Positions 3,666 to 32,207 of a DNA stretch of 46,266 bases are shown here, one piece after another. Every line of letters starts with the position of its first letter. Position 1 is the first letter of the stretch. A program made the position numbers and the translations under genes. Under the pieces are notes generated by a model, which was not told where the DNA came from, searched no databases, and saw only the letters and a program-made list of their open reading frames with translations. This stretch comes from a virus (Duplodnaviria > Heunggongvirae > Uroviricota > Caudoviricetes), in IMG/VR virus record IMGVR_UViG_2671180743_000008; one strand, given 5' to 3'.

Positions 3666-4149
3666 CCTGCGCTTTGTCTTTCTCCAACCACTTCAGCACC
3701 GCAGACGTACGATAAAGGCTCAGGTAACCACAATTCAGGCAATGCAGCGTGTAATAAGTTTTGCGCATATCAGGTATGCTCTTAACATCACCCAAAAAAG
3801 CATAAGATACATAATGCTTTATGTTCTCTTTAATTAACTCACTCTGTTCCTCCAGGGGTAGATTGTTAAAATTTTCTGGTTTCTTATTTTTATCCCAGCA
3901 AAGATCCATACTTTCTGGAACAGATAATCGCGACGATCCACATGAAGGGCAGACACTGGAGACCCCCTTCTCAGACAAGAAACGGAAGAAGATTTCTGGC
4001 GTAATCTCCATCAGCCGCTCTTTATGTTTTTTGACACGACTCATCGACTTCTTATTGATTTCATCAGCTTCTTCTTTGCATTTATCTTCTATATATTTCG
4101 ATAGTAAATAGTCATATAACTCTTTTTTTGTAGGTTTTTTTATTTCCAT
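3649..4149 (-). CDS. Hypothetical zinc-ribbon protein (prophage cargo)
   Basis: 166 aa; Lys/Glu-rich; CPSC ... CLNC cysteine pairs suggest a Zn ribbon; markedly AT-rich codon usage compared with flanking prophage genes; starts 3 nt after the integrase stop. Confidence 0.6.
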   Translation of the reverse strand: MEIKKPTKKELYDYLLSKYIEDKCKEEADEINKKSMSRVKKHKERLMEITPEIFFRFLSEKGVSSVCPSCGSSRLSVPESMDLCWDKNKKPENFNNLPLEEQSELIKENIKHYVSYAFLGDVKSIPDMRKTYYTLHCLNCGYLSLYRTSAVLKWLEKDKAQDGDNG

Positions 4150-4151
4150 AG

Positions 4152-5129
4152 TTACATTCCTCCCAAGGGATTAAACCTCACCGCATCCTGCAAGTAATCC
4201 GGCGCAAGATGGGCATAAATCATCGTTGTCTGAATCTTTGCGTGCCCCAGAATTTTCTGGAGCGTCAGAATATTGCCGCCGTTCATCATGAAATGACTGG
4301 CGAAGGTGTGGCGCAGCGCATGAACAGCCTGGCCGTCAGGAACATCAGGTGCGACCGTTTTGATGACATCGCGAACCAATGAATAATCCAGCGTCGGAAA
4401 CACCAGTTTCCCGCCCCGTTTTTTGATCTTTTCAAACAGGCTTTCAGAAATAGGAACGGTACGGTTTTTGCTGTTCTTCGTTTTTGAAAAAGTGATTCGA
4501 CAATGAAGAACACGGCGCTGCTCCAGTGCCGCTACCTCGCCCCATCGCGCCCCGGTCGACAGAAGGATTTCGACGGCCAGCCGTTCATCGGGATTTTCAG
4601 CCAGTGCATCCAGCAACTGAACACATTCAGACTTACTCAGATATCCCATTTCACGCTCGTTAACCTTCATTCCTTTAAGGCCTTGAACGGGGTTATCGTT
4701 AAGAAAATGGCCGGATGAGATGAGTGCGGTAAACATCGCGCTTAACGCCCCAATCTCTCGATTTATGGTGCTGGGCTGTATCCCCTGCTCTATCCTGGAC
4801 ACACGTAGCTCGGTGAGCATCGTTGTATTAAGTTTATGCACGCACGGGTCATCCATTGCCTCACTCAAGCGCAGCAATTTAAGGCGCGTGTTATGCCCTG
4901 ACTTCATTAGCTGGCCGTGGTATTTCCACCACAAGTCAATAAGCACTGACAGCGGACGGCGATCAATGGAGTTTCCTTTCCACTCATTGTTATGCTGTTG
5001 CGCCAGCACCCACCGCTCATATAAAACTGCATCCGATTTCGTTTTAAATTTTTTGCGAATGCGTTTGCCTTTACGCCCCTCAGGACGCATGTCAAGAAGA
5101 TACCCTCCCGGAATTGATTTTATGCTCAT
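4152..5129 (-). CDS. int: P2-type tyrosine integrase
   Basis: Start chosen at MSIKSIPGG (the ORF track extends to 5279); catalytic-region motifs HALRHTFASH and LGHAKIQTTMIYAHL; C-terminus FNPLGG typical of P2/186 integrases. Confidence 0.9.
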   Translation of the reverse strand: MSIKSIPGGYLLDMRPEGRKGKRIRKKFKTKSDAVLYERWVLAQQHNNEWKGNSIDRRPLSVLIDLWWKYHGQLMKSGHNTRLKLLRLSEAMDDPCVHKLNTTMLTELRVSRIEQGIQPSTINREIGALSAMFTALISSGHFLNDNPVQGLKGMKVNEREMGYLSKSECVQLLDALAENPDERLAVEILLSTGARWGEVAALEQRRVLHCRITFSKTKNSKNRTVPISESLFEKIKKRGGKLVFPTLDYSLVRDVIKTVAPDVPDGQAVHALRHTFASHFMMNGGNILTLQKILGHAKIQTTMIYAHLAPDYLQDAVRFNPLGGM

Positions 5130-7924: not shown

Positions 7925-10747
7925 ATGACGGCAGAGTACATCAGGGACTGGCAACAACCGCGCCACGCAGTGGGGCGTGAAGGAACGGGGATCCCCGCTC
8001 CTGAATCCGCGCTTTCCTCCTGGCTGGATGCCCACCGGGCAGAGAACGAGCGCCGCCAGGAAATGGCTGATGCGGCGTTCTCCGCCACGCCACTGGGCAA
8101 CCTGATTAATAAAAGCCTGGACGCACAGGAAAAACAGGACAAAACCATCACACTGGCAGGAGACGCCAGAAAACAGGCACGCGGCGCGGTGGATGAAGCC
8201 ATGGCCTCGCTGCGCCTGCTGCCGTCCTATCTGCGCGATCCGCTTATTCGCCACCTCTCCTTCCTGCGCAAAAAACAGGAAGCCGATCGCCGGAAAGGCA
8301 AAAAGAGCTGGCAGGCGGAACGCTATGCACGCGGAACCCTGCGCAAAATATTCGAACGTCTGGATCGCACTGACGGACACTGGCTGACACCGGGTTATCG
8401 CTCCCTTGCCGGACGTGAACGCCTGGACGATTTGCTTTACCTGCCGCAACTCAACAAACACCAGATACAGACGCTGGCCACCATGACGGCGGCGATGTTC
8501 AGCAGCACCTTCGAAAAACTCTGCGATGGTTTTGGCGCGACTGATGGCGAGCTGACCATGGATGTAACGCTGAAGGCGTATCAGATGCTGGCCCGCATGG
8601 CGTTACACTTACACGCCATGCCTCCGCATTATGACGCACTGACAACAGACAAAGACCGGAGGCACGAACCGGACACAGAACTGCTGCCGGGCGCAATCCT
8701 TCGCCTGACCTGTGCGGAATGGTGGAAACGCAAACTGTGGCTGTTACGTTGCGAGTGGAGAGAAGAACAACTTCGCGCCGCCTGTCTGGTTTCCAGAAAA
8801 ACATCGCCCTATCTGAGCCAGGACGCGTTAAGCGAGTTTCGCGCACAGCGCGAGAAAACACGCGATTTCCTGAAAAGTTTCATGCTGGAAAATGAAGACG
8901 GGTTCACGATTGATCTCGAGACGGTGTATTACGCGGGAGTAAGTAACCCGGTTCACCGTAAGGCAGAAATGATGGCCACCATGAAGGGGCTGGAACTTCT
9001 GGCCGAAGCCCGTGGCGACAAAGCGGTGTTTCTGACTGTCACCTGCCCGTCAAAATACCACGCCACAACGGAGAACGGTCATCCGAATCCCAAATGGAAC
9101 GGGGCCACAATGCGCGACTCCAGCGATTACCTGGTTAACACGTTTTTTGCGACGGTCCGCAAAAAACTGAACCGCGACGGCCTGCGCTGGTATGGCATCC
9201 GCACGGCGGAGCCTCACCATGACGGCACCGTGCACTGGCATATGATGGTCTTTGCTCATCCGGAAGAAATCGACACCATTGTGTCCCACACCCGCGATAT
9301 TGCCATTCAGGAAGATCGTCACGAGCTGGGCGATGACATAACTCCGCGCTTTAAGGCGGAGTATGTAGACGGCTCAAAAGGCACGCCAACCAGCTACATC
9401 GCCACCTACATCGGGAAAAACCTGGACAGCCGCGCCGTGGATGGCATCGACCCGAAAACGGGCAAGCCACGCGTTGACCACGAAACCGGAAAATCAATGG
9501 CCGAGAGCGTGGAACGCGCCATCGGCTGGGCGCGCCTTCACCGGGTCCGCCAGTTCCAGTTCTTTGGCATCCCCTCCCGCCAGGTATGGCGTGAACTGCG
9601 CCGCCTTGCCAGCCAGATGGCACGCAACCCGGAAGGCCCGCAACGGCTGAAGGATGACGCAATGGATGCGGTTCTTGCCGCCGCTGATGCCGGATGTTTT
9701 GCCACCTACATAGAGAAACAGGGCGGCGTACTTGTTCCACGCAAAGACTACCTGATTCGCACCGCCTACGACCTCGCCGATGAGCTGAACGATTACGGCG
9801 AACAGAGCGTACAGATTTACGGGATCTGGTCACCACTCATCGGGGAATCCTCCCGTGTGTGCACGCATCCGGATAACTGGAAGCTGGTAAGACGCAAACC
9901 GGAAGCGGAAGACAGCGCCCGCGAAAATGGTTTTGACCTTCAGGGCGGCCCTGCCGCCCCTTGGACTCGTGGCAATAACTGTCCCCGTGTACAGGAAACG
10001 GACAACAACGGGACAGAACAGCCGGAAGAACGGCCAGCACCGTGGCCGCAGCTCCCTGACGGCGTTGATGTGGATGAATGGATGCGCTCACTGAAACGGC
10101 ACGAACGCCGGGCGCTGATGCGTTCGCTTCGTGACAAACAGGCAAAAAACAGCAGTGATGAAATGCAGAGCTGGACACAGAGCCGCAAACAGCAGCGGCC
10201 TTTGCCTGATAACCACGAATTACTCGCTAAAGAATGGCGGGAGTCTGCTGAATCTCTCGGCCTGCATATCGGTGAACAACAGATGCAGCACCTGTTACGG
10301 GGCGGCAGTCTGTACGTTGACGGCAGCATCATTGCACCGCAGGGATTTGAAATTGTACGCAAACCGGATACCCGCCCGGACAGCCGAATCACGCAGCTCT
10401 GGCAGCGCCTGAGCCGTAATCATGGCGTAAGCAGCACGGAGATCCGCCATAACCCGGTCGCCAGCTATCTGACACAGCTGGGGGCATCAGACCCTGAAGC
10501 CGCCGCACGCCTGGCATCCACACTTCAGCAGGACCAGAACACCATGAAAACACCCGTTACCGTGCTTTCTGACATGCTGCGCGCCATCCGCGACGCAGAG
10601 CACGCACAGAGAATCAGTGAAACCACTGAACGCGCCCGCCGCAAAGCAGACCTGCTGCGGGGTGGCCTGACCAGTGGAAACAAAAAACAGACAGAAACGG
10701 GACTCACGAATCCCGTAAATGAGCAAAAAACGCGCAGCGATATATGA
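7925..10747 (+). CDS. A: P2 gpA-type rolling-circle replication initiator (endonuclease)
   Basis: 940 aa; HUH-type motif VHWHMMVF and tyrosine pair YIATYIGKN as in P2 A; longer than the P2 protein as I recall it, with a charged C-terminal tail. Confidence 0.85.
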   Translation: MTAEYIRDWQQPRHAVGREGTGIPAPESALSSWLDAHRAENERRQEMADAAFSATPLGNLINKSLDAQEKQDKTITLAGDARKQARGAVDEAMASLRLLPSYLRDPLIRHLSFLRKKQEADRRKGKKSWQAERYARGTLRKIFERLDRTDGHWLTPGYRSLAGRERLDDLLYLPQLNKHQIQTLATMTAAMFSSTFEKLCDGFGATDGELTMDVTLKAYQMLARMALHLHAMPPHYDALTTDKDRRHEPDTELLPGAILRLTCAEWWKRKLWLLRCEWREEQLRAACLVSRKTSPYLSQDALSEFRAQREKTRDFLKSFMLENEDGFTIDLETVYYAGVSNPVHRKAEMMATMKGLELLAEARGDKAVFLTVTCPSKYHATTENGHPNPKWNGATMRDSSDYLVNTFFATVRKKLNRDGLRWYGIRTAEPHHDGTVHWHMMVFAHPEEIDTIVSHTRDIAIQEDRHELGDDITPRFKAEYVDGSKGTPTSYIATYIGKNLDSRAVDGIDPKTGKPRVDHETGKSMAESVERAIGWARLHRVRQFQFFGIPSRQVWRELRRLASQMARNPEGPQRLKDDAMDAVLAAADAGCFATYIEKQGGVLVPRKDYLIRTAYDLADELNDYGEQSVQIYGIWSPLIGESSRVCTHPDNWKLVRRKPEAEDSARENGFDLQGGPAAPWTRGNNCPRVQETDNNGTEQPEERPAPWPQLPDGVDVDEWMRSLKRHERRALMRSLRDKQAKNSSDEMQSWTQSRKQQRPLPDNHELLAKEWRESAESLGLHIGEQQMQHLLRGGSLYVDGSIIAPQGFEIVRKPDTRPDSRITQLWQRLSRNHGVSSTEIRHNPVASYLTQLGASDPEAAARLASTLQQDQNTMKTPVTVLSDMLRAIRDAEHAQRISETTERARRKADLLRGGLTSGNKKQTETGLTNPVNEQKTRSDI
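10694..10719. repeat. Palindromic element copy 1 (AACGGGAcTcacGAATCCCGTAAA)
   Basis: Imperfect palindrome ACGGGA...TCCCGT inside the 3' end of gene A; a near-identical copy lies 73 bp downstream. Confidence 0.6.
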
Positions 10748-10766
10748 AGCGCGCACAAAACAGGCA

Positions 10767-10793
10767 AAAACGGGATTTCAGAATCCCGTAAAC
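10767..10793. repeat. Palindromic element copy 2, immediately upstream of parM
   Basis: AAAACGGGATTTCAGAATCCCGTAAA between the gene A stop and the parM start; possible operator or centromere-like site. Confidence 0.6.
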
Positions 10794-10823
10794 GATTAAT
10801 TAATCAACATAAGGAAAAGCGAC

Positions 10824-11783
10824 ATGAAAATTTGTATCGACGACGGCTCCACCAACATCAAGCTGGCATGGACTGAGAACGGCGAACGCCGCAACGCCAT
10901 CAGCCCGAACAGCTTCAAGTCGGAATGGTCTGCGCCGTTCGGTGGCATGCAGCCCGCGAACTACATGCTTGATGGCGTGCGCTATGGTTTTGATCCGGTC
11001 AGCGATCGCTTTGTCCAGACAACCGACACGCAATACCAGTACAGCGATGTAAATGTCATTGCCATTCATCACGCGCTGGTCAAATCAGGCATCACGCCAC
11101 AGGAGGTGGATGTGGTTGTCACCCTGCCACTGAGCGAGTATTTCGACACAAACGCACAGCCGGACATGGCCAACATCAACCGCAAAAAAGCGAACGTTAT
11201 GCGCCCGGTGGAGTACCAGAACGGCGAAGCATTCACTATCCGTAACGTGCGGGTTATGCCTGAATCCATTCCGGCTGGCTTTAAGGCACTGGCTGACATG
11301 AGTCCGTTTGAATCCCTGCTGATTGTGGATTTGGGCGGAACCACGCTGGATGTGGCAAAGGTTCAGGGGCAACTGGCAGGTATCAGCCAGGTGTTTTGCG
11401 ATCCACACGTAGGCGTTTCTCTGATGGCCGATGCCGTACTGTCGGTGATGGCCACTAACGGTATGCGCACCAGTCACCACATCGCCAATACCATTATCGA
11501 ACATCGCCATGATGAAGCCTGGCTGCGCCAGCACATCCACAATGACGCGCATTACGCCAGCCTGATGGCGGTTATTCGTGAAAAGGAAGAAACACTGAAA
11601 CAACGCGTGATCCGCGCGCTGGCGGGTTTTTCGGGTTACGGGCGGGTGATGGTTGTCGGTGGAGGGGCGGAGATTGTGGCACCCGCTATCCGCGAAGCCT
11701 GCGGAGTTAATGCGACTTTCATCGCGGACGGGGTGCCACAGTTTGCTCTGGTTAATGGGCTGTACGCAATGGACAAGGAGTAA
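10824..11783 (+). CDS. parM: ParM/StbA-family actin-like partition ATPase
   Basis: 319 aa; N-terminus MKICIDDGSTNIKLAW, internal YSDVNVIAIHHAL, VMPESIPAG, LIVDLGGTTLDVA, GVSL, FSGYGRVMVVGGGAE and C-terminal LVNGLYA all line up with plasmid R1 ParM as I recall it. Confidence 0.85.
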   Translation: MKICIDDGSTNIKLAWTENGERRNAISPNSFKSEWSAPFGGMQPANYMLDGVRYGFDPVSDRFVQTTDTQYQYSDVNVIAIHHALVKSGITPQEVDVVVTLPLSEYFDTNAQPDMANINRKKANVMRPVEYQNGEAFTIRNVRVMPESIPAGFKALADMSPFESLLIVDLGGTTLDVAKVQGQLAGISQVFCDPHVGVSLMADAVLSVMATNGMRTSHHIANTIIEHRHDEAWLRQHIHNDAHYASLMAVIREKEETLKQRVIRALAGFSGYGRVMVVGGGAEIVAPAIREACGVNATFIADGVPQFALVNGLYAMDKE

Positions 11784-11787
11784 ACCA

Positions 11788-12099
11788 ATGACGACACCAA
11801 CCAGACGGATAAGTTTCTATCTGAAGCCTGCGGCCGTCAAGAACGAAAGCGAAGCATGCGCCTGGCTGGGCAGCCTTACACCAGAAGCCCGCAAAAGCGG
11901 CCAACGCGTGGCTTTTCTGGCCGGGCTGGCACTTCTGAAAATGAATCCAGCAGAGGCTTACCGACTGGCTGCATGGGCTGACGATGAGGCGTTATCGGTG
12001 ACACAAACCAGGACAGAACGCCCCGTGCCACAGCCAGTACCAACCGCACAGATAACCAGTCAGATAGCAGGGAATATCCGGGCATTATTTCCTGAATGA
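11788..12099 (+). CDS. parR: ParR/StbB-like partition adaptor
   Basis: Start at MTTPTRRISFYLKP, 5 nt after the parM stop; N-terminal ribbon-helix-helix-like segment and C-terminal LFPE resemble R1 ParR; follows parM as in the parMR operon. Confidence 0.65.
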   Translation: MTTPTRRISFYLKPAAVKNESEACAWLGSLTPEARKSGQRVAFLAGLALLKMNPAEAYRLAAWADDEALSVTQTRTERPVPQPVPTAQITSQIAGNIRALFPE

Positions 12100-12159
12100 C
12101 GAATTTGACGGCTTTTAATTTTATCGGGGTGCACTGTCGCCCCGCACGAGGAAAACACG

Positions 12160-12684
12160 ATGAAAAAATACGAATACATGCTAATGAAAGAAGCACTGCG
12201 GGCTGGTCTGGCTCCCTGTCCTGTATCCGTAGAAGCTGTTGTTGGGAACACGATTTTCCGAACGCTGCGAAATCGCGTATCCGTGAAGATGGTTCACCAA
12301 CCACCCAAATCTACCAGCATGATCTATCTGCCGCTGCCCGAGGCTATCAAACTTATGCGTTCGCTGAAATTTGCGATTTGGATGCAGACACAAATCAACA
12401 AAGCGGTGCAAAACACCTTCGTTAAGAGACTAATACCGGAGCTTGCTGCCAGATGTGCAAAATGTACCAGACCCGCACTTCAATTTGATCTGTCATTGAT
12501 TCAACAAGCTACGGAGGCAGAACTGTACCGCCTGTCACCTATCCGTGATGCTCACACGGAAGCATCAGAAATGTTCCGGCTCATGTTTCAATTTAATTTT
12601 GCCGTTCGACGCACACGCGTTCAGGTCAATCGCATGATGCAGGAGCAGGAAGAGTTAACACAGTACAAAGGGGGCAGCCAGTGA
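12160..12684 (+). CDS. Hypothetical protein (hotspot cargo)
   Basis: 174 aa; good RBS (GAGG) upstream; no family recognised. Confidence 0.55.
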   Translation: MKKYEYMLMKEALRAGLAPCPVSVEAVVGNTIFRTLRNRVSVKMVHQPPKSTSMIYLPLPEAIKLMRSLKFAIWMQTQINKAVQNTFVKRLIPELAARCAKCTRPALQFDLSLIQQATEAELYRLSPIRDAHTEASEMFRLMFQFNFAVRRTRVQVNRMMQEQEELTQYKGGSQ

Positions 12685-13611: not shown

Positions 13612-14658
13612 TCAGGATGTGGGCTGGGTGTCTAACAGTGCGTAAGGGTTAAAGCGGATCACCTCTTCGCCAAGCCAGTCATTGATGTGCTTCATGGCCT
13701 CCATGACGGGCATCAGCTCGTTAATTGCGTAAACCCGCGCGGCCTTCTCCACATCACCAAACGCACTTTTTTCGCCCGGCATCGCCCCCATCAGTTGCGG
13801 CGGAACGCGGTGCGCAGCCAGCACATCATCACGGGATGCCGCCTTAACATTCATGAACTCATCCTTTGCGGTGATCTGCTGGAACGGCAAAATTTGCACC
13901 CCCTCTTTGCCCCCGTTGGGCGCATGAATGAGCACGTTTTTAAACGCACCACCACCACGTGCCCCCTGTAGCGTTTCTTTCAGGGAGTCCATGCTTTCGC
14001 GGTTTACCTGCGCTGCACCGATGTAGATGATGCACCCGGCGTGGGATCCGTTGTCGTAGTACAGTTTTCTGAACATGTCCGCCGAATGAGAAAGGCTGGC
14101 CGAGAGTAATGCGCCAAGATATTCCGGCATGCCGTAGATTTCCTGGTTAATATCCGGATTCATCAGGTGGCACACTTTGCCAGGACGAAACTGAAACGCA
14201 TCCTTGCCATCCTGCACATACCACCATGATTCAAGATCGCTTCCGCGTCGCATGTATTTCGCCAGGGCGTGCCGTAATTTAAGCGGTTCGCCGAGCATAT
14301 TGCTCCGAAGCTCAAGGAATGCGTTACCGAACACAAACCAGTCCAGCGCCAGCGCCGAGAAATCCTGCCGGGAAAGCAGCGGGTGCGGAATATAGCAGCC
14401 GAGCAATACATTGCGCTTAAAGTAAAGCGCAGACTGATGCCAGGACGTTTGCCGGGCAGCTCTTGCCAGACCGTACCAGTCCACCGGGGTTTCATACCAC
14501 CGCCCGTTATCAGCACAGTACATATTGTCCAGCAGGTCATGCCCGGTCAGGCGGTAAGGACCATCAAATGTGAATGCACTGAGCGACGATTCTTTCCTGA
14601 GCGCATCAGCGAGATCAATGCGTGAACTCATGCGCACTTTTTTATTTTTTCTGCTCAT
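13612..14658 (-). CDS. Q: Portal protein
   Basis: 348 aa; size and position match P2 gpQ; transcribed leftward with P. Confidence 0.85.
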   Translation of the reverse strand: MSRKNKKVRMSSRIDLADALRKESSLSAFTFDGPYRLTGHDLLDNMYCADNGRWYETPVDWYGLARAARQTSWHQSALYFKRNVLLGCYIPHPLLSRQDFSALALDWFVFGNAFLELRSNMLGEPLKLRHALAKYMRRGSDLESWWYVQDGKDAFQFRPGKVCHLMNPDINQEIYGMPEYLGALLSASLSHSADMFRKLYYDNGSHAGCIIYIGAAQVNRESMDSLKETLQGARGGGAFKNVLIHAPNGGKEGVQILPFQQITAKDEFMNVKAASRDDVLAAHRVPPQLMGAMPGEKSAFGDVEKAARVYAINELMPVMEAMKHINDWLGEEVIRFNPYALLDTQPTS

Positions 14659-29450: not shown

Positions 29451-32207
29451 ATGACAGTAAAAATTTCTGGCGTGCTTAAAGATGGCACAGGAAAACCAGT
29501 ACAGAACTGCACCATTGTGCTGAAGGCCAGACGAACCAGCAGCACGATGGTGGTGAACACGGTGGCCTCTGAAAATCCGGATGAAGCCGGACGTTACAGC
29601 ATGGATGTTGAGCATGGTCAGTACAGCGTCACCCTGCTGGTTGAAGGTTTTCCGCCTTCACATGCCGGGACCATTACCGTCTATGAAGGTTCCAGACCAG
29701 GTACGCTGAATGATTTTCTCGGTGCCATGACGGAGGATGATGTCCGACCGGAGGCACTGCGCCGCTTTGAGCAGATGGTGGAAGAGGTGTCACGTAACGC
29801 CTCCGCGGTTGCACAGAATACGGCAGCCGCGAAAAAATCAGCCAGCGAGGCGGCAACTCATGCAACCGATGCTGCAGCCTCAGCACGTGCCGCCAGCACG
29901 TCAGCCGGACAGGCCGCGTCGTCGGCTCAGTCAGCGTCTTCCAGCGCAGGAACGGCATCGACAAAGGCCCGTGAAGCAGCAAAAAGTGCTGCTGCAGAGT
30001 CATCAAAAAGCGCGGCAGCTACCAGCGCCAGTGCCGCGAAAACGTCAGAAACGAATGCCGCAGCATCACAAAAATCGGCAGCCACTTCTGCATCCACAGC
30101 GACCACGAAGGCGTCAGAAGCTGCCACCTCGGCACGGGGTGCGGCGGCCTCAAAAGAGGCAGCGAAATCTTCAGAAACGAATGCATCATCAAGTGCCAGT
30201 AGTGCAGCTTCCTCGGCAACGGCGGCAGGAAATTCCGCGAAGGCGGCAAAAACGTCCGAGACGAACGCTAAGTCTTCTGAAACAGCAGCGGGACAGAGCG
30301 CCTCAGCTGCGGCAGGTTCAAAAACAGCGGCTGCATTATCTGCCAGTGCCGCGTCAACAAGTGCCGGGCAGGCCTCAGCCAGTGCCACCGCCGCCGGAAA
30401 ATCGGCAGAAAGCGCCGCATCATCCGCTTCAACAGCCACAACGAAGGCTGGCAAAGCCACTGAGCAAGCCACTGCAGCAGCGAGGTCTGCTTCTGCAGCA
30501 AAAACCTCTGAAACAAATGCAAAGACTTCAGCAGACAATGCTGCTTCCTCTAAGGCAGCAGCCGCATCGTCAGCCAGTTCAGCGGCGTCATCGGCATCAT
30601 CTGCGTCTGCTTCAAAAGATGAGGCGACCAGACAAGCGTCAGCAGCGAAAGGTAGTGCCACGACAGCAACAACGAAAGCATCAGAGGCGGCAGGCAGTGC
30701 GACGGCTGCATCTCAGAGCAAAGTTGCTGCTGAATCCGCGGCAACGCGCGCCGAGACAGCAGCAAAACGGGCAGAGGATATTGCATCCGCCGTGGCGCTG
30801 GAGGATGCGAGCACGACGAAAAAGGGGATAGTACAGCTCAGCAGTGCGACCAACAGCACTTCCGAGTCACTGGCGGCAACGCCAAAAGCGGTTAAGGCGG
30901 TAATGGGTGAAACGAACAAGAAAGCGCCCTTAAATAGTCCTGCACTGACCGGAACGCCAACAACACCAACTGCGCGACAGGGAACGAATAATACCCAAAT
31001 CGCAAGCACGGCTTTCGTTATGGCTGCGATTGCCGCCCTTGTAGATTCGTCACCTGATGCACTGAACACGCTGAACGAGCTGGCTGCGGCGCTGGGCAAC
31101 GACCCGAATTTTGCGACCACCATGACTAACGCGCTTGCGGGTAAGCAACCGAAAGATGCCACCCTGACGGCGCTGGCCGGACTTACTACTGCGGCAGGCA
31201 AGTTTCCGTATTTTACGGGGAATGATGTCGCCAGCCTGGCAACCCTGACAAAAGTCGGGCGGGATATTCTTGCGAAATCGACCGTTGCTGCCGTTATCGA
31301 ATACCTCGGTTTACAGGAAACGGTAAACAAGGCTGGTAACGCCGTTCAGCGTTCCGGCGATAAAATGACCGGAGAACTGAAAATTGGCACGGTGAATGCG
31401 CTGCGAATTTTCAATGATACCTTCGGTCTAATTTTCCGTCGTTCAGAAGATTTTCTTCATTTCATTCCGACGGCTGAAGGACAAGGCGAAAACGGTAATA
31501 TCGGCCCATTAAGGCCATTCGCTATAAATCTGAGAACAGGTGCTATATCTGTCAGCCACGGGGCCAAAATTAAAGGAGGTCTAGCTATTGGAGCTACTGA
31601 TAACGCACTGGGTGAAAACTCCATTGTTCTGGGAGATAACGACACCGGATTTAGGCAAGATGGAGATGGTATTATTAGCTTCTATTCAAATGGTTCGCGC
31701 ATCGGACATATTGATGAGTTAGGATTACATCTTTATAAAGATATTGAATCTAATGGCAGCAATTTTAGATTAAAAAGTAATTACCGCCACCACATTACAT
31801 TCGCCAACGAAGACGGAAGAATTCGTATGTTTTTGTGGAAAGATAACGGTGGTGATGGTGTTCATATTAATAACGGTTCAGATGGTGGTGGTGATTTCAT
31901 TTTTAAAACAGATGGGGGATTTGCGCTGGGAAGTGGTGCGCAAGTTGCGTCTAGTGGCGATATTTATGGTTCAGTGTGGGAAAACAACTGGTTAAGCACA
32001 TGGCTGCATAATCATGTCGTTCGGGATATTCGTCTTGGCAGCATTGAATATAAAAACGTATGGCGCGACTACGGCTTTGGCGATGCGTCAGGTTATGTTT
32101 TAACAGCCGCAATTAACAGCAATGCGGATGATATTGTCGACACTGTTGCCAGAAGGCCAATTCAGAAATTGATTGGGGGAATATGGTACAACGTGGGGAG
32201 TGTTTAA
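29451..32207 (+). CDS. stf: Lambdoid side tail fibre protein Stf (tip variant B)
   Basis: 918 aa; long Ala/Ser/Thr-rich repetitive shaft; C-terminal half homologous to H but not identical to copy 1 in the shaft (GIVQLSSATNSTSES versus [15 protein letters not shown]); contains a gix-like site. Confidence 0.85.
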   Translation: MTVKISGVLKDGTGKPVQNCTIVLKARRTSSTMVVNTVASENPDEAGRYSMDVEHGQYSVTLLVEGFPPSHAGTITVYEGSRPGTLNDFLGAMTEDDVRPEALRRFEQMVEEVSRNASAVAQNTAAAKKSASEAATHATDAAASARAASTSAGQAASSAQSASSSAGTASTKAREAAKSAAAESSKSAAATSASAAKTSETNAAASQKSAATSASTATTKASEAATSARGAAASKEAAKSSETNASSSASSAASSATAAGNSAKAAKTSETNAKSSETAAGQSASAAAGSKTAAALSASAASTSAGQASASATAAGKSAESAASSASTATTKAGKATEQATAAARSASAAKTSETNAKTSADNAASSKAAAASSASSAASSASSASASKDEATRQASAAKGSATTATTKASEAAGSATAASQSKVAAESAATRAETAAKRAEDIASAVALEDASTTKKGIVQLSSATNSTSESLAATPKAVKAVMGETNKKAPLNSPALTGTPTTPTARQGTNNTQIASTAFVMAAIAALVDSSPDALNTLNELAAALGNDPNFATTMTNALAGKQPKDATLTALAGLTTAAGKFPYFTGNDVASLATLTKVGRDILAKSTVAAVIEYLGLQETVNKAGNAVQRSGDKMTGELKIGTVNALRIFNDTFGLIFRRSEDFLHFIPTAEGQGENGNIGPLRPFAINLRTGAISVSHGAKIKGGLAIGATDNALGENSIVLGDNDTGFRQDGDGIISFYSNGSRIGHIDELGLHLYKDIESNGSNFRLKSNYRHHITFANEDGRIRMFLWKDNGGDGVHINNGSDGGGDFIFKTDGGFALGSGAQVASSGDIYGSVWENNWLSTWLHNHVVRDIRLGSIEYKNVWRDYGFGDASGYVLTAAINSNADDIVDTVARRPIQKLIGGIWYNVGSV
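31294..31319. other. gix/pix-like crossover site inside stf
   Basis: TTATCGAATACCTCGGTTTACAGGAA, same sequence and orientation as the site in H. Confidence 0.75.

What the first reader, a model, noticed from the sequence alone, without database searches (positions are those of the whole stretch)
10694..10793. Two copies of a 26-bp palindromic element flanking the gene A stop, upstream of parM
AACGGGAcTcacGAATCCCGTAAA (10694..10719, inside the 3' end of A) and AAAACGGGATTTCAGAATCCCGTAAA (10767..10793, just before parM) are near-identical imperfect palindromes 73 bp apart. Their position suits a ParR-binding centromere/operator, although the canonical R1 parC has many short iterons rather than two palindromes. 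They could instead be a terminator or the A-protein origin region.
Basis: seen in the sequence. Interest (0 to 1): 0.45.

Follow-up and report, generated by a model that had tools for sequence, protein, structure and literature searches.

The report
Likely centromere of a prophage partition module
Two copies of a roughly 20-bp symmetric DNA motif, 73 bp apart and just upstream of the actin-like segregation genes parM and parR of a common P2-like E. coli prophage, are most likely the site that the ParR protein grips, i.e. the module's centromere, built differently from the textbook plasmid version.

Summary
Dyad 1 (10697-10716) and dyad 2 (10770-10789) are the only two copies in the 46-kb window; no shuffle gave two. 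Each lies in a 42-nt direct repeat with 73-bp spacing.

The window is a P88-like (Xuanwuvirus, P2-family) prophage: gpA, then ParM, then a ParR of family PF10784.

The pair travels with parMR, not with gene A:
- In relatives with an unrelated A or an extra upstream gene, homology starts about 15 nt left of dyad 1.
- Dyad 1 is crossed by different reading frames or is intergenic.
- In parM lineages only 62-63% identical (Hafnia, Plesiomonas), the spacer has diverged and the hairpin potential is lost. Two GGG-N10-CCC units still sit 72-73 bp apart.
- All these lineages share the ParR N-terminus TRR[IV]SFYL.
- Sister prophage modules and plasmids with NRK[IC]SFY carry different repeats (ATTTTTCT).

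The homologue of the P2 ori nick site lies about 735 bp upstream. Terminator-like shape exists only on the minus strand and is not conserved.

Best reading: a ParR-binding parC made of two spaced, dyad-containing repeats (confidence about 0.7). ParR binding is untested, and no promoter was found. I rate it a new variant of a known kind, of moderate interest.

The parts
10681..10722 (+). Repeat unit 1 (42 nt): an A-rich left flank, dyad 1, and the right flank TAAATGA. It is the left edge of the mobile par cassette.
   Evidence: Direct-repeat family D1. Homology with L048 and L068, which have unrelated upstream genes, begins about 15 nt left of dyad 1.
10697..10716 (+). Dyad 1 core, ACGGGACTCACGAATCCCGT (GGG-N10-CCC). 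It lies inside the 3' end of gene A in this phage.
   Evidence: The GGG and CCC positions are invariant in four lineages. The site is crossed by different frames or is intergenic in relatives.
10723..10753 (+). Central spacer holding the A stop codon (10745-10747) and two CGCGCA direct repeats (10731-10736 and 10750-10755). No consensus sigma-70 promoter was found here.
   Evidence: The corresponding repeats read CGTGCA twice in Hafnia L133. The spacer is not conserved in L139 or L141.
10754..10795 (+). Repeat unit 2 (42 nt), containing dyad 2.
   Evidence: L022 keeps homology only from about 4-5 nt left of dyad 2.
10770..10789 (+). Dyad 2 core, ACGGGATTTCAGAATCCCGT, with perfect 8-bp arms. 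It is intergenic and ends 34 nt upstream of parM.
   Evidence: CGGG and CCC are invariant in four lineages.
10795..10815 (+). ATTAAT(T)AATCAA element, invariant in four lineages, followed by the parM Shine-Dalgarno AAGGA (10811-10815). It may be a translation-initiation region or a weak -10 element.
   Evidence: It is duplicated together with the ribosome-binding site where a 93-aa ORF was inserted in L146.
10824..11783 (+). parM: actin-like segregation ATPase, 319 aa.
   Evidence: Pfam StbA_N, E = 2.7e-82, and the ParM C-terminal domain, E = 1.3e-68.
11788..12099 (+). parR: centromere-binding adaptor, 103 aa. It has an N-terminal TRRISFYLKP strand, a variable linker and a conserved C-terminal NIRALFPE tail.
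   Evidence: Pfam PF10784 (Plasmid_stab_B), E = 2.1e-23. A profile of 24 homologues hits PDB 2JD3 (deposited as 'STBB PROTEIN') at E = 0.0016. Conservation pattern.

Best explanation
The two repeats are the cis-acting centromere (parC) of a type II ParM/ParR partition module carried by a P88-like, P2-family prophage.

Proposed mechanism:
1. ParR, a ribbon-helix-helix protein, binds each roughly 20-bp unit, probably as a dimer of dimers. It would contact the invariant GGG and CCC triplets through the outward-facing residues of its N-terminal strand (R, S and Y of TRRISFYL).
2. The two units lie 73 bp apart, about 7 helical turns, so they face the same side of an A-tract-phased, probably bent, stretch of DNA. 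They could be gathered into one ParR-DNA complex.
3. That complex would cap ParM filaments through the conserved ParR C-terminal tail. The circular, excised or infecting, phage genome would then be moved or positioned.
4. parM and parR follow gene A on the same strand with no + strand terminator at the junction and no detectable promoter of their own. They are therefore probably expressed with the early lytic operon.

Shown here: the repeats, their uniqueness in the window, their linkage to parMR, their conservation and spacing, and the family membership of ParM and ParR.

Inferred: ParR binding, its stoichiometry, the looping of the two sites, the timing of expression, and the biological role.
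For: - Canonical position: immediately upstream of parM, with parR downstream.
- Only two copies in 46 kb; 0 of 100 shuffles reach two.
- Of 120 viral contigs with the exact palindrome, 115 are the same A-parM junction. The other 5 are unrelated single copies.
- Cassette boundary: L048 has an A protein 31% identical to the window's and 38% to P2 A, and L068 has an extra 145-aa ORF. In both, similarity to the window starts about 15 nt left of dyad 1 and runs through parM.
- Dyad 1 is not conserved for coding reasons. The window's A reads through it. The Hafnia L133 A ends with TGA in its centre. L068 reads it in another frame. In L048 it is intergenic.
- In prophages with ParM 62-63% identical (L139 Hafnia, L141 Plesiomonas) and in L133, two GGG-N10-CCC units lie at -128/-55, -131/-59 and -124/-51 from the parM ATG. 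The window's lie at -125/-52. Spacing is 73, 72, 73 and 73 bp. The background rate of this motif in the window is 0.19 per kb.
- Hairpin potential is not conserved. Predicted RNA folding energies are -9 to -10.7 kcal/mol in the window but -4.6 and -4.7 kcal/mol (z = -0.5 and -1.1) in L139. L141 keeps only 3-4-bp stems with 10-nt loops.
- The ParR strand TRR[IV]SFYL is invariant in every dyad-bearing lineage, including both ParR allele families that are about 52% identical to each other. Modules with [NL]RK[IV]SFY (L142, L143, L147) and the plasmids pOXA-48 and pEC556 (NRKCSFY) carry ATTTTTCT-type repeats instead.
- In L146 a 93-aa ORF is inserted between the dyads and parM, and the dyads stay at the head of the unit.
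- AAA[CT] tracts are phased at 10.3 bp (R = 0.80; 1 of 2000 shuffles).
- Precedent for small or mixed centromeres. pB171 ParR binds two 10-bp repeats (PMC9426499). [quoted passage not shown]
Against: - No binding data exist, and none could be computed.
- Characterised ParR proteins bind arrays of direct repeats, and their parC usually contains the par promoter (PMC9426499). Here there are only two strong units, and no sigma-70 consensus promoter was found in any of four lineages.
- The link between the ParR strand type and the repeat type rests on two clades plus two plasmids. It could be shared ancestry rather than independent co-variation.
- The sequences within the P88-like clade are too similar for column conservation to single out the dyads.
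- More than 99% of E. coli copies are chromosomal. A segregation role therefore needs the excised form, which has not been shown.
- The AlphaFold2 monomer model of ParR was unusable (pLDDT 56). The ribbon-helix-helix fold rests on family membership and a weak profile hit to 2JD3.
Confidence: 0.7

Rival explanations
1. The elements act as RNA stem-loops in the early transcript that runs from gene A into parM. They could be processing or stability elements, or modulators of parM translation.
For: Both copies fold as stable hairpins on the + strand in the window (-9.0 and -10.7 kcal/mol; z = -2.7 and -3.3). They lie at a gene junction inside a probable polycistronic unit with no promoter of its own.
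Against: The hairpins are not conserved where the GGG-N10-CCC units and their spacing are. In L139 the energies are -4.6 and -4.7 kcal/mol, with z = -0.5 and -1.1. L141 has only 3-4-bp stems with 10-nt loops. No compensatory double changes were seen among 117 loci. There is no Rfam match. A fixed 72-73-bp spacing of two hairpins has no obvious RNA rationale.
Confidence: 0.1
2. The elements are binding sites for a DNA-binding protein other than ParR, either a host factor or another phage regulator. They would control parMR or the end of the early operon.
For: Dyad symmetry with a variable centre is typical of many dimeric regulators. No test here identifies the protein.
Against: The sites move with the parMR cassette into phages with a very different replication gene (L048 A is 31% identical). 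They also stay with parMR behind different upstream genes. ParR is the only DNA-binding protein encoded in that cassette. The sites occur nowhere else in the 46-kb window. They track the ParR strand type.
Confidence: 0.1
3. The elements are tandem intrinsic terminators on the minus strand. They would stop antisense transcription that enters from the late or accessory region and would otherwise run into gene A.
For: Both copies score as terminator-like on the minus strand: an 8-bp stem followed by TTTTGCCTGT or TTCTGTCTGT. The same holds in Hafnia L133.
Against: No minus-strand gene ends nearby; the nearest is the portal gene, which ends at 13612. The T-runs come from an A-rich left flank that is specific to the P88/L133 lineages. 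No terminator-like site is found at the dyads in L139 or L141, although the units and their spacing persist there. On the + strand there is no T-run.
Confidence: 0.05
4. The elements are part of the gene A replication origin, either the nick site or an auxiliary element.
For: The P2 ori lies inside gene A, and dyad 1 is inside the 3' end of A.
Against: The P2 nick sequence GCGCC/TCGGAGTCCTGTCAA encodes AAPRSPVNNC. The homologous residues of the window's A (AAPWTRGNNC) are encoded at about 9948-9982 by GCCGCCCCTTGGACTCGTGGCAATAACTGT, roughly 735 bp upstream. The dyads accompany parM behind A proteins only 31% identical and behind other genes.
Confidence: 0.02

Closest known systems
parC of plasmid R1 / NR1 (type II ParMRC, also called StbAB)
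   Same: It is a cis site immediately upstream of parM-parR. ParR belongs to the same Pfam family, PF10784. The repeats lie on both sides of a central segment. The DNA is A-tract-rich with roughly 10-11-bp phasing.
   Different: R1 has ten 11-bp direct iterons flanking a clear promoter (PMC9426499; R1-like sequence). Here there are two 20-42-nt units with internal dyad symmetry, 73 bp apart, and no recognisable promoter. ParM is 46.5% identical to the IncFII plasmid ParM (H88/L127, the R1-like locus). By sequence alignment and the alternating side-chain pattern of a ribbon-helix-helix strand, the outward-facing residues would be R/S/Y here and T/A/K in R1; this is inferred.
pB171 par1 ParR/parC (PDB 2JD3)
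   Same: It is the only solved structure detectably related by sequence (profile E = 0.0016). Its ParR is reported to bind just two 10-bp repeats upstream of parM (PMC9426499), so a two-site centromere has a precedent.
   Different: Those repeats are short direct repeats, not dyads 73 bp apart. It is borne on a plasmid.
srpMRC of SXT/R391 integrative conjugative elements
   Same: It is a type II partition module in an element that normally sits integrated in the chromosome. [quoted passage not shown] SrpR binding and plasmid stabilisation were shown (PMC4489591).
   Different: SrpR has no recognisable similarity to ParR. The host element is an ICE rather than a phage. The repeat sequences are unrelated.
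AlpAC/alpS of the Corynebacterium glutamicum prophage CGP3
   Same: An integrated prophage encodes an actin-like filament protein, an adaptor and upstream repeats. The genes are expressed early after induction and are needed for efficient replication of the circular phage DNA (PMC4446434, PMC5539076). It is a functional model for what parMRC might do here.
   Different: alpS consists of 24 short TTAAnnG repeats. The proteins are not close relatives. The host is Gram-positive.
Sister par modules of P2-like prophages in Serratia and Enterobacter (L142, L143, L147)
   Same: They occupy the same genomic slot (gpA, parM, parR, then portal). ParM is 54-58% identical for L142 and L143 (not measured for L147) and ParR belongs to PF10784.
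   Different: The ParR strand is [NL]RK[IV]SFY. The upstream site is one large inverted repeat, GAAATAGAAAAAT ... ATTTTTCTATTTC, with 26-28 nt between the arms in L142 and L143. It shares the ATTTTTCT motif with the pOXA-48 and pEC556 iterons.

Membership tests
Type II (ParMRC) partition locus: the parC centromere | Actin-like ParM ATPase encoded in the locus | tested here: met
   Pfam StbA_N, E = 2.7e-82, and the ParM C-terminal domain, E = 1.3e-68, on ORF 10824-11783.
Type II (ParMRC) partition locus: the parC centromere | Small ParR adaptor of the ribbon-helix-helix type encoded directly downstream of parM | tested here: met
   PF10784, E = 2.1e-23. Profile hit to PDB 2JD3 ('STBB PROTEIN') at E = 0.0016. 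The N-terminal strand motif and the C-terminal tail are conserved. The fold itself was not confirmed: the AlphaFold2 monomer model has pLDDT 56.
Type II (ParMRC) partition locus: the parC centromere | Repeated DNA motif in cis, adjacent to (usually upstream of) parM | tested here: met
   Two units at -125 and -52 from the parM ATG, unique in the window. They are linked to parMR in all contexts examined.
Type II (ParMRC) partition locus: the parC centromere | The repeats are specifically bound by the cognate ParR | not testable with these tools
   Only indirect support: repeat type and ParR strand type go together.
Type II (ParMRC) partition locus: the parC centromere | Array of several tandem direct iterons (R1: 10 x 11 bp; pSK41: 20-bp repeats; pCW3: 4 x 17 bp) | tested here: not met
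   Only two strong units, 73 bp apart, each with internal dyad symmetry. There are phased AAA[CT] tracts but no iteron array.
Type II (ParMRC) partition locus: the parC centromere | parC contains the par promoter, which ParR autoregulates | tested here: inconclusive
   No sigma-70 consensus promoter in the window or in L133, L139 or L141. The best candidates are TGAGCA-15 nt-TATATG in the window and TGAACA-16 nt-TATAAG in L133, both read directly from the sequence and both weak.
Type II (ParMRC) partition locus: the parC centromere | Stabilises an unstable replicon in cis and exerts incompatibility | not testable with these tools
   This needs an experiment.
Intrinsic (rho-independent) terminator | G+C-rich hairpin followed by a U-run on the transcribed strand, downstream of a gene | tested here: not met
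   On the + strand there is no T-run after either hairpin. On the minus strand the shape is present in the window and L133 but absent in L139 and L141, and no minus-strand gene ends nearby.
P2-type origin of replication (gene A nick site) | Homology to the A nick sequence at the conserved position inside gene A | tested here: not met
   The nick-site homologue maps to about 9948-9982. The P2 nick sequence has no match within 3 mismatches anywhere in the window.

The most novel reading that the evidence does not exclude
P88-like P2-family prophages are present in about a quarter of complete E. coli genomes and are almost always integrated. On this reading they carry a working minimal centromere of only two ParR sites, seven helical turns apart. 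The excised or infecting phage circle would then be actively positioned or partitioned by ParM filaments. That would give an integrating P2-type phage either a plasmid-like carrier state or a cytoskeleton-assisted replication and packaging step. It would also show that a type II centromere can be built from two looped dyads instead of an iteron array.
Probability: 0.3. Interest if true: 0.65.

Novelty: new variant of a known kind. Interest (0 to 1): 0.42.

Why it matters
Characterised type II centromeres are described as arrays of direct repeats bound by ParR (PMC9426499). A ParR of the R1/pB171 family that works through two dyad-containing units 73 bp apart would widen the known range of segrosome architectures. 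It would also give a very small and tractable centromere for structural work.

The module sits in an integrating P2-like prophage found in 1308 of 5426 complete E. coli genomes, including O157:H7 strains. What an actin-like segregation machine does for such a phage is unstudied in the literature I could search. Defining the cis site makes that question testable through site mutants, ParR ChIP and stabilisation assays.

If the site turns out to be an ordinary ParR operator, the result is still a useful annotation for a very common prophage.

Tried and rejected
- Sigma-70 promoter scans of the window (10300-12400) and of three other lineages found nothing. The 'operator' or autoregulation reading therefore stays unsupported.
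- An Rfam search of 10500-10950 at E <= 1 gave no match.
- phmmer of ParR against PDB sequences gave no hit even at E <= 10. Only a 24-sequence profile reached 2JD3.
- The AlphaFold2 model of ParR from alignment A3 had mean pLDDT 55.9 and showed a helix where the N-terminal strand is expected. This is not surprising for an obligate dimer. I did not use it and ran no fold search.
- The single genome-contig scan with ParM returned only 3 loci, all 98-99% identical, so it added no diversity. The intermediate relatives came from the protein search plus contig look-ups.
- Column conservation within the P88-like clade (117 loci, 70 unique rows) is too uniformly high to single out the dyads. No compensatory double substitutions were seen, so covariation could not separate an RNA reading from a DNA reading within that clade.
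- A first regex-based extraction of the variants missed many loci. I replaced it with an alignment-based one.
- A search for the P2 nick sequence with up to 3 mismatches found nothing. I located the ori homologue through the protein alignment instead.
- From reading the sequence and from my own knowledge of their consensus sequences, I considered and dropped IHF, CRP, LexA, Cox-box and Ogr-type sites. None resembles the motif.
Full report
**1. The observation**

The sequence at 10690-10800 reads ...CAGAAACGGGACTCACGAATCCCGTAAATGAGC...GGCAAAAACGGGATTTCAGAATCCCGTAAACGATT.... Searching ACGGGATT-N4-AATCCCGT with up to three mismatches finds exactly two sites in the 46,266-bp window. They are 10697-10716 (one mismatch) and 10770-10789 (perfect). 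The expectation is 0.12, and none of 100 dinucleotide-preserving shuffles gave two.

The repeat finder shows that each palindrome sits inside a longer 42-nt direct repeat. The two copies are 10681-10722 and 10754-10795, 81% identical, with start-to-start spacing of 73 bp.

**2. Context**

ORF 7925-10747 (940 aa) is a P2-type replication protein (Pfam Phage_GPA, E = 6.6e-131). ORF 10824-11783 is ParM (StbA_N, E = 2.7e-82, and the ParM C-terminal domain, E = 1.3e-68). ORF 11788-12099 (103 aa) is a ParR of family PF10784 (Plasmid_stab_B), E = 2.1e-23. A profile of 24 ParR homologues hits PDB 2JD3, deposited as 'STBB PROTEIN', at E = 0.0016. By my own knowledge that entry is the ParR of pB171.

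The locus is 95-99% identical to Escherichia phage P88 and other members of Xuanwuvirus, Peduoviridae. In a closely matching chromosome, the element is an integrated P2-like prophage. Its gene order is integrase, repressor, early genes, A, parM, parR, then portal and terminase on the other strand.

The locus occurs in 1308 of 5426 complete E. coli genomes. It is found at 1454 chromosomal places and 2 plasmid places.

**3. The sites belong to the par module, not to gene A**

Of these, 115 carry a P88-type A and/or ParM next to the site. The other five are unrelated sequences with a single copy and no similarity to the window.

Several relatives break the link with gene A:
- **L048.** Its A protein is only 31% identical to the window's and 38% to P2 A. 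A further 159-aa ORF follows it. Both dyads are then intergenic and parM is 98% identical.
- **L068.** It has an extra 145-aa zinc-ribbon-like ORF upstream of parM, and this ORF reads through dyad 1 in a different frame.

In a three-way alignment, similarity between the window, L048 and L068 begins about 15 nt to the left of dyad 1 and is then nearly perfect through parM. In Hafnia L133 the A gene stops with a TGA in the centre of dyad 1, whereas the window's A reads through it for 17 more codons. Dyad 1 is therefore conserved regardless of coding frame, and the left edge of the mobile cassette coincides with the left edge of repeat unit 1.

**4. Deeper conservation**

The plasmid ParM proteins closest to this one are at most 52% identical. 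The relatives at 54-63% identity are all in P2-like prophages, in the same slot between gpA and the portal gene: Hafnia L139, Plesiomonas L141, Serratia L142 and Enterobacter L143.

In L139 and L141, as in the closer L133, there are exactly two GGG-N10-CCC units. Their positions relative to the parM ATG are:

| Lineage | Unit 1 | Unit 2 | Spacing (bp) |
|---|---|---|---|
| Window | -125 | -52 | 73 |
| L133 | -124 | -51 | 73 |
| L139 | -128 | -55 | 73 |
| L141 | -131 | -59 | 72 |

The background frequency of this motif in the window is 0.19 per kb.

A four-lineage alignment shows which columns are invariant. They are GGGA, AA-N-CCC-NN-AA-NN-G in unit 1 and CGGG, A-N-CCC-NN-AA-NN-G in unit 2. 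The 53-nt spacer between the units is not conserved.

What is conserved is therefore an oriented unit of about 23 nt that contains a GGG/CCC dyad. The motif GGGA-N6-AA-N-CCC-NN-AA occurs twice in the window (expectation 0.02) and, across the fetched loci, on the same strand as parM.

The inner arms (ATT/AAT) are not kept in Plesiomonas, where the unit reads GGGACAACAAAAACCC. RNA hairpin stability falls from -9 to -10.7 kcal/mol in the window to -4.6 and -4.7 kcal/mol (z = -0.5 and -1.1) in L139. In L146 a 93-aa ORF has been inserted between the dyads and parM, together with a duplicated ribosome-binding region. The dyads, still 73 bp apart, remain at the head of the unit.

**5. Link to ParR**

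All ParR proteins of the dyad-bearing lineages have the N-terminal strand TRR[IV]SFYL. This holds across the two ParR allele families of P88-like phages. Those families are only about 52% identical overall, yet they share residues 1-19 and the C-terminal NIRALFPE, and they have the same dyads.

The sister prophage modules L142, L143 and L147 have [NL]RK[IV]SFYL. Upstream of parM they carry a different design: one large inverted repeat, GAAATAGAAAAAT ... ATTTTTCTATTTC. The plasmids pOXA-48 and pEC556 have ParR strands NRKCSFY, and their iteron arrays are built on the same ATTTTTCT motif. Phage D6 and the Arsenophonus and Phytobacter plasmids have the strand types K-M/Q-Y and TCTC-type iterons.

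Repeat type and the outward-facing strand residues therefore go together. This is what is expected if these repeats are the ParR targets. The assignment of outward-facing residues is inferred from the alternating pattern of a ribbon-helix-helix strand. The association could partly reflect common descent.

**6. Rivals**

*Replication origin.* The P2 nick site (record position 29892, GCGCC/TCGGAGTCCTGTCAA) encodes AAPRSPVNNC. The aligned residues of the window's A protein (AAPWTRGNNC) are encoded at about 9948-9982 by a recognisably similar sequence, roughly 735 bp upstream of dyad 1.

*Terminator.* Neither hairpin is followed by a T-run on the + strand. On the minus strand both score as terminator-like. 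This results from an A-rich left flank that exists only in the P88 and L133 lineages. The L139 and L141 sites give no terminator-like hit on either strand. No minus-strand gene ends nearby.

*RNA element.* Hairpin potential is not conserved, no compensatory changes were seen, and there is no Rfam match.

*Another regulator.* The sites move with a cassette whose only DNA-binding product is ParR, and they occur nowhere else in the window.

**7. What remains open**

No sigma-70-type promoter was detected between or after the dyads in any lineage. parMR is therefore probably read from the early operon, and the R1-style autoregulated promoter is not demonstrated.

An invariant ATTAAT-N-AA element lies between dyad 2 and the ribosome-binding site. 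Its role is unknown.

AAA[CT] tracts are phased at 10.3 bp across 10675-10810 (R = 0.80; 1 of 2000 shuffles). The phasing is weaker in L133 and L139 and absent in L141. Together with the 73-bp spacing (about 7 turns), this suggests the two units lie on one face of bent DNA. That is inference.

**8. Comparison with what is known**

ParM and ParR are members of the R1/NR1/pB171 type II family by Pfam. The cis site meets the positional and repeat criteria of parC. It does not have the tandem iteron array of R1, pSK41 or pCW3. According to PMC9426499, all ParR proteins characterised to date bind direct repeats, and pB171 ParR binds two 10-bp repeats.

Two integrated elements with actin-type partition modules have been studied. 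[quoted passage not shown] The other is the CGP3 prophage AlpAC/alpS, expressed early after induction and needed for efficient replication of the circular phage DNA (PMC4446434).

The P88 genome paper does not mention partition at all (PMC5285337). Searches for Xuanwuvirus, and for Peduoviridae or P2-like prophages with ParM/ParR/parC, found no description of this site.

**9. Verdict**

It is a new variant of a known kind: a type II centromere candidate made of two spaced, dyad-containing repeats in a very common integrating P2-like prophage. Interest is moderate. The site's position is what a specialist would expect. Its architecture, and the unexplained presence of ParMRC in an integrating phage, are the parts worth an experiment.

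Noticed in passing
window 9948-9982: Probable replication origin of this phage, the gene A nick site. GCCGCCCCTTGGACTCGTGGCAATAACTGT aligns with the P2 ori sequence GCCGCGCC/TCGGAGTCCTGTCAATAACTGT at the homologous position of the A protein.
   Followed up: partly
L149 (NZ_CP148288.1, whole record): A 34,461-bp circular record deposited as a non-mobilizable E. coli 'plasmid' is a complete P88-like phage genome. It carries integrase, cox, A, parM, parR, the structural genes and a hok/gef gene. Either the excised phage circle was assembled, or the phage can persist as an episome.
   Followed up: partly
window 10600-12100; E. coli genomes: The A-parM-parR junction is present in 1308 of 5426 complete E. 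coli genomes, including O157:H7 strains. It is found at 1454 chromosomal places and 2 plasmid places, with up to 3 copies per genome.
   Followed up: yes
window 11788-12099; L001 4489-4803: ParR exists as two allele families about 52% identical. They share residues 1-19 and the C-terminal NI(R/Q)xLFPE and differ in the middle. The DNA similarity to phages such as vB_EcoM-569R5 ends about 55 bp into parR. This looks like recombinational replacement of the linker and helix region while the DNA-reading strand and the ParM-binding tail are kept.
   Followed up: partly
L142 3380-3445; L143 3383-3450; L147 about 1430-1475: Sister par modules of P2-like prophages in Serratia and Enterobacter have a different upstream design. 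It is a 14-20-nt inverted repeat, (T/C)GGGAAC..ATAGAAAAAT / ATTTTTCT(A/G)TTTC..., with 26-28 nt between the arms in L142 and L143. It shares the ATTTTTCT motif with the direct iterons of the pOXA-48 and pEC556 parC regions. Their ParR strands are K-S-Y instead of R-S-Y.
   Followed up: partly
L146 1072-1545: In one Hafnia prophage a 93-aa ORF is inserted between the two dyads and parM. The ATTAATCAA and ribosome-binding-site segment is duplicated, so both the inserted gene and parM have a copy.
   Followed up: partly
window 10731-10736 and 10750-10755: Two CGCGCA direct repeats lie 19 bp apart in the spacer, centred midway between the dyads. Both read CGTGCA in Hafnia L133, a concerted change. 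Their significance is unknown, and they are absent in L139 and L141.
   Followed up: no
window 10795-10808: An ATTAAT(N)AA element between dyad 2 and the parM ribosome-binding site is invariant in four lineages, although its distance from dyad 2 varies. It may be a weak -10 element or a translation enhancer.
   Followed up: no
L137 (NZ_JBQPOM010000071.1): A 226-kb contig labelled Vagococcus sp. WN89Y, a Firmicute, carries a parM 98% identical to the E. coli prophage gene. The assembly is probably contaminated or mislabelled.
   Followed up: no
L116 about 4000-4275; L022 about 230-560: Degenerate derivatives exist. L116 keeps both dyads, but parM codon 25 is fused to the last 29 codons of parR. 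L022 keeps only dyad 2 and a truncated parM, with A truncated at about residue 762 and roughly 2.7 kb of other DNA in between.
   Followed up: no
L003 (phage P88 GenBank record KP063541): In the original P88 record, ParM is annotated as 'recombinase' and ParR as 'chromosome partitioning protein'. Several database names for ParR homologues read 'peptide transporter'. These look like annotation errors that hide the module.
   Followed up: no
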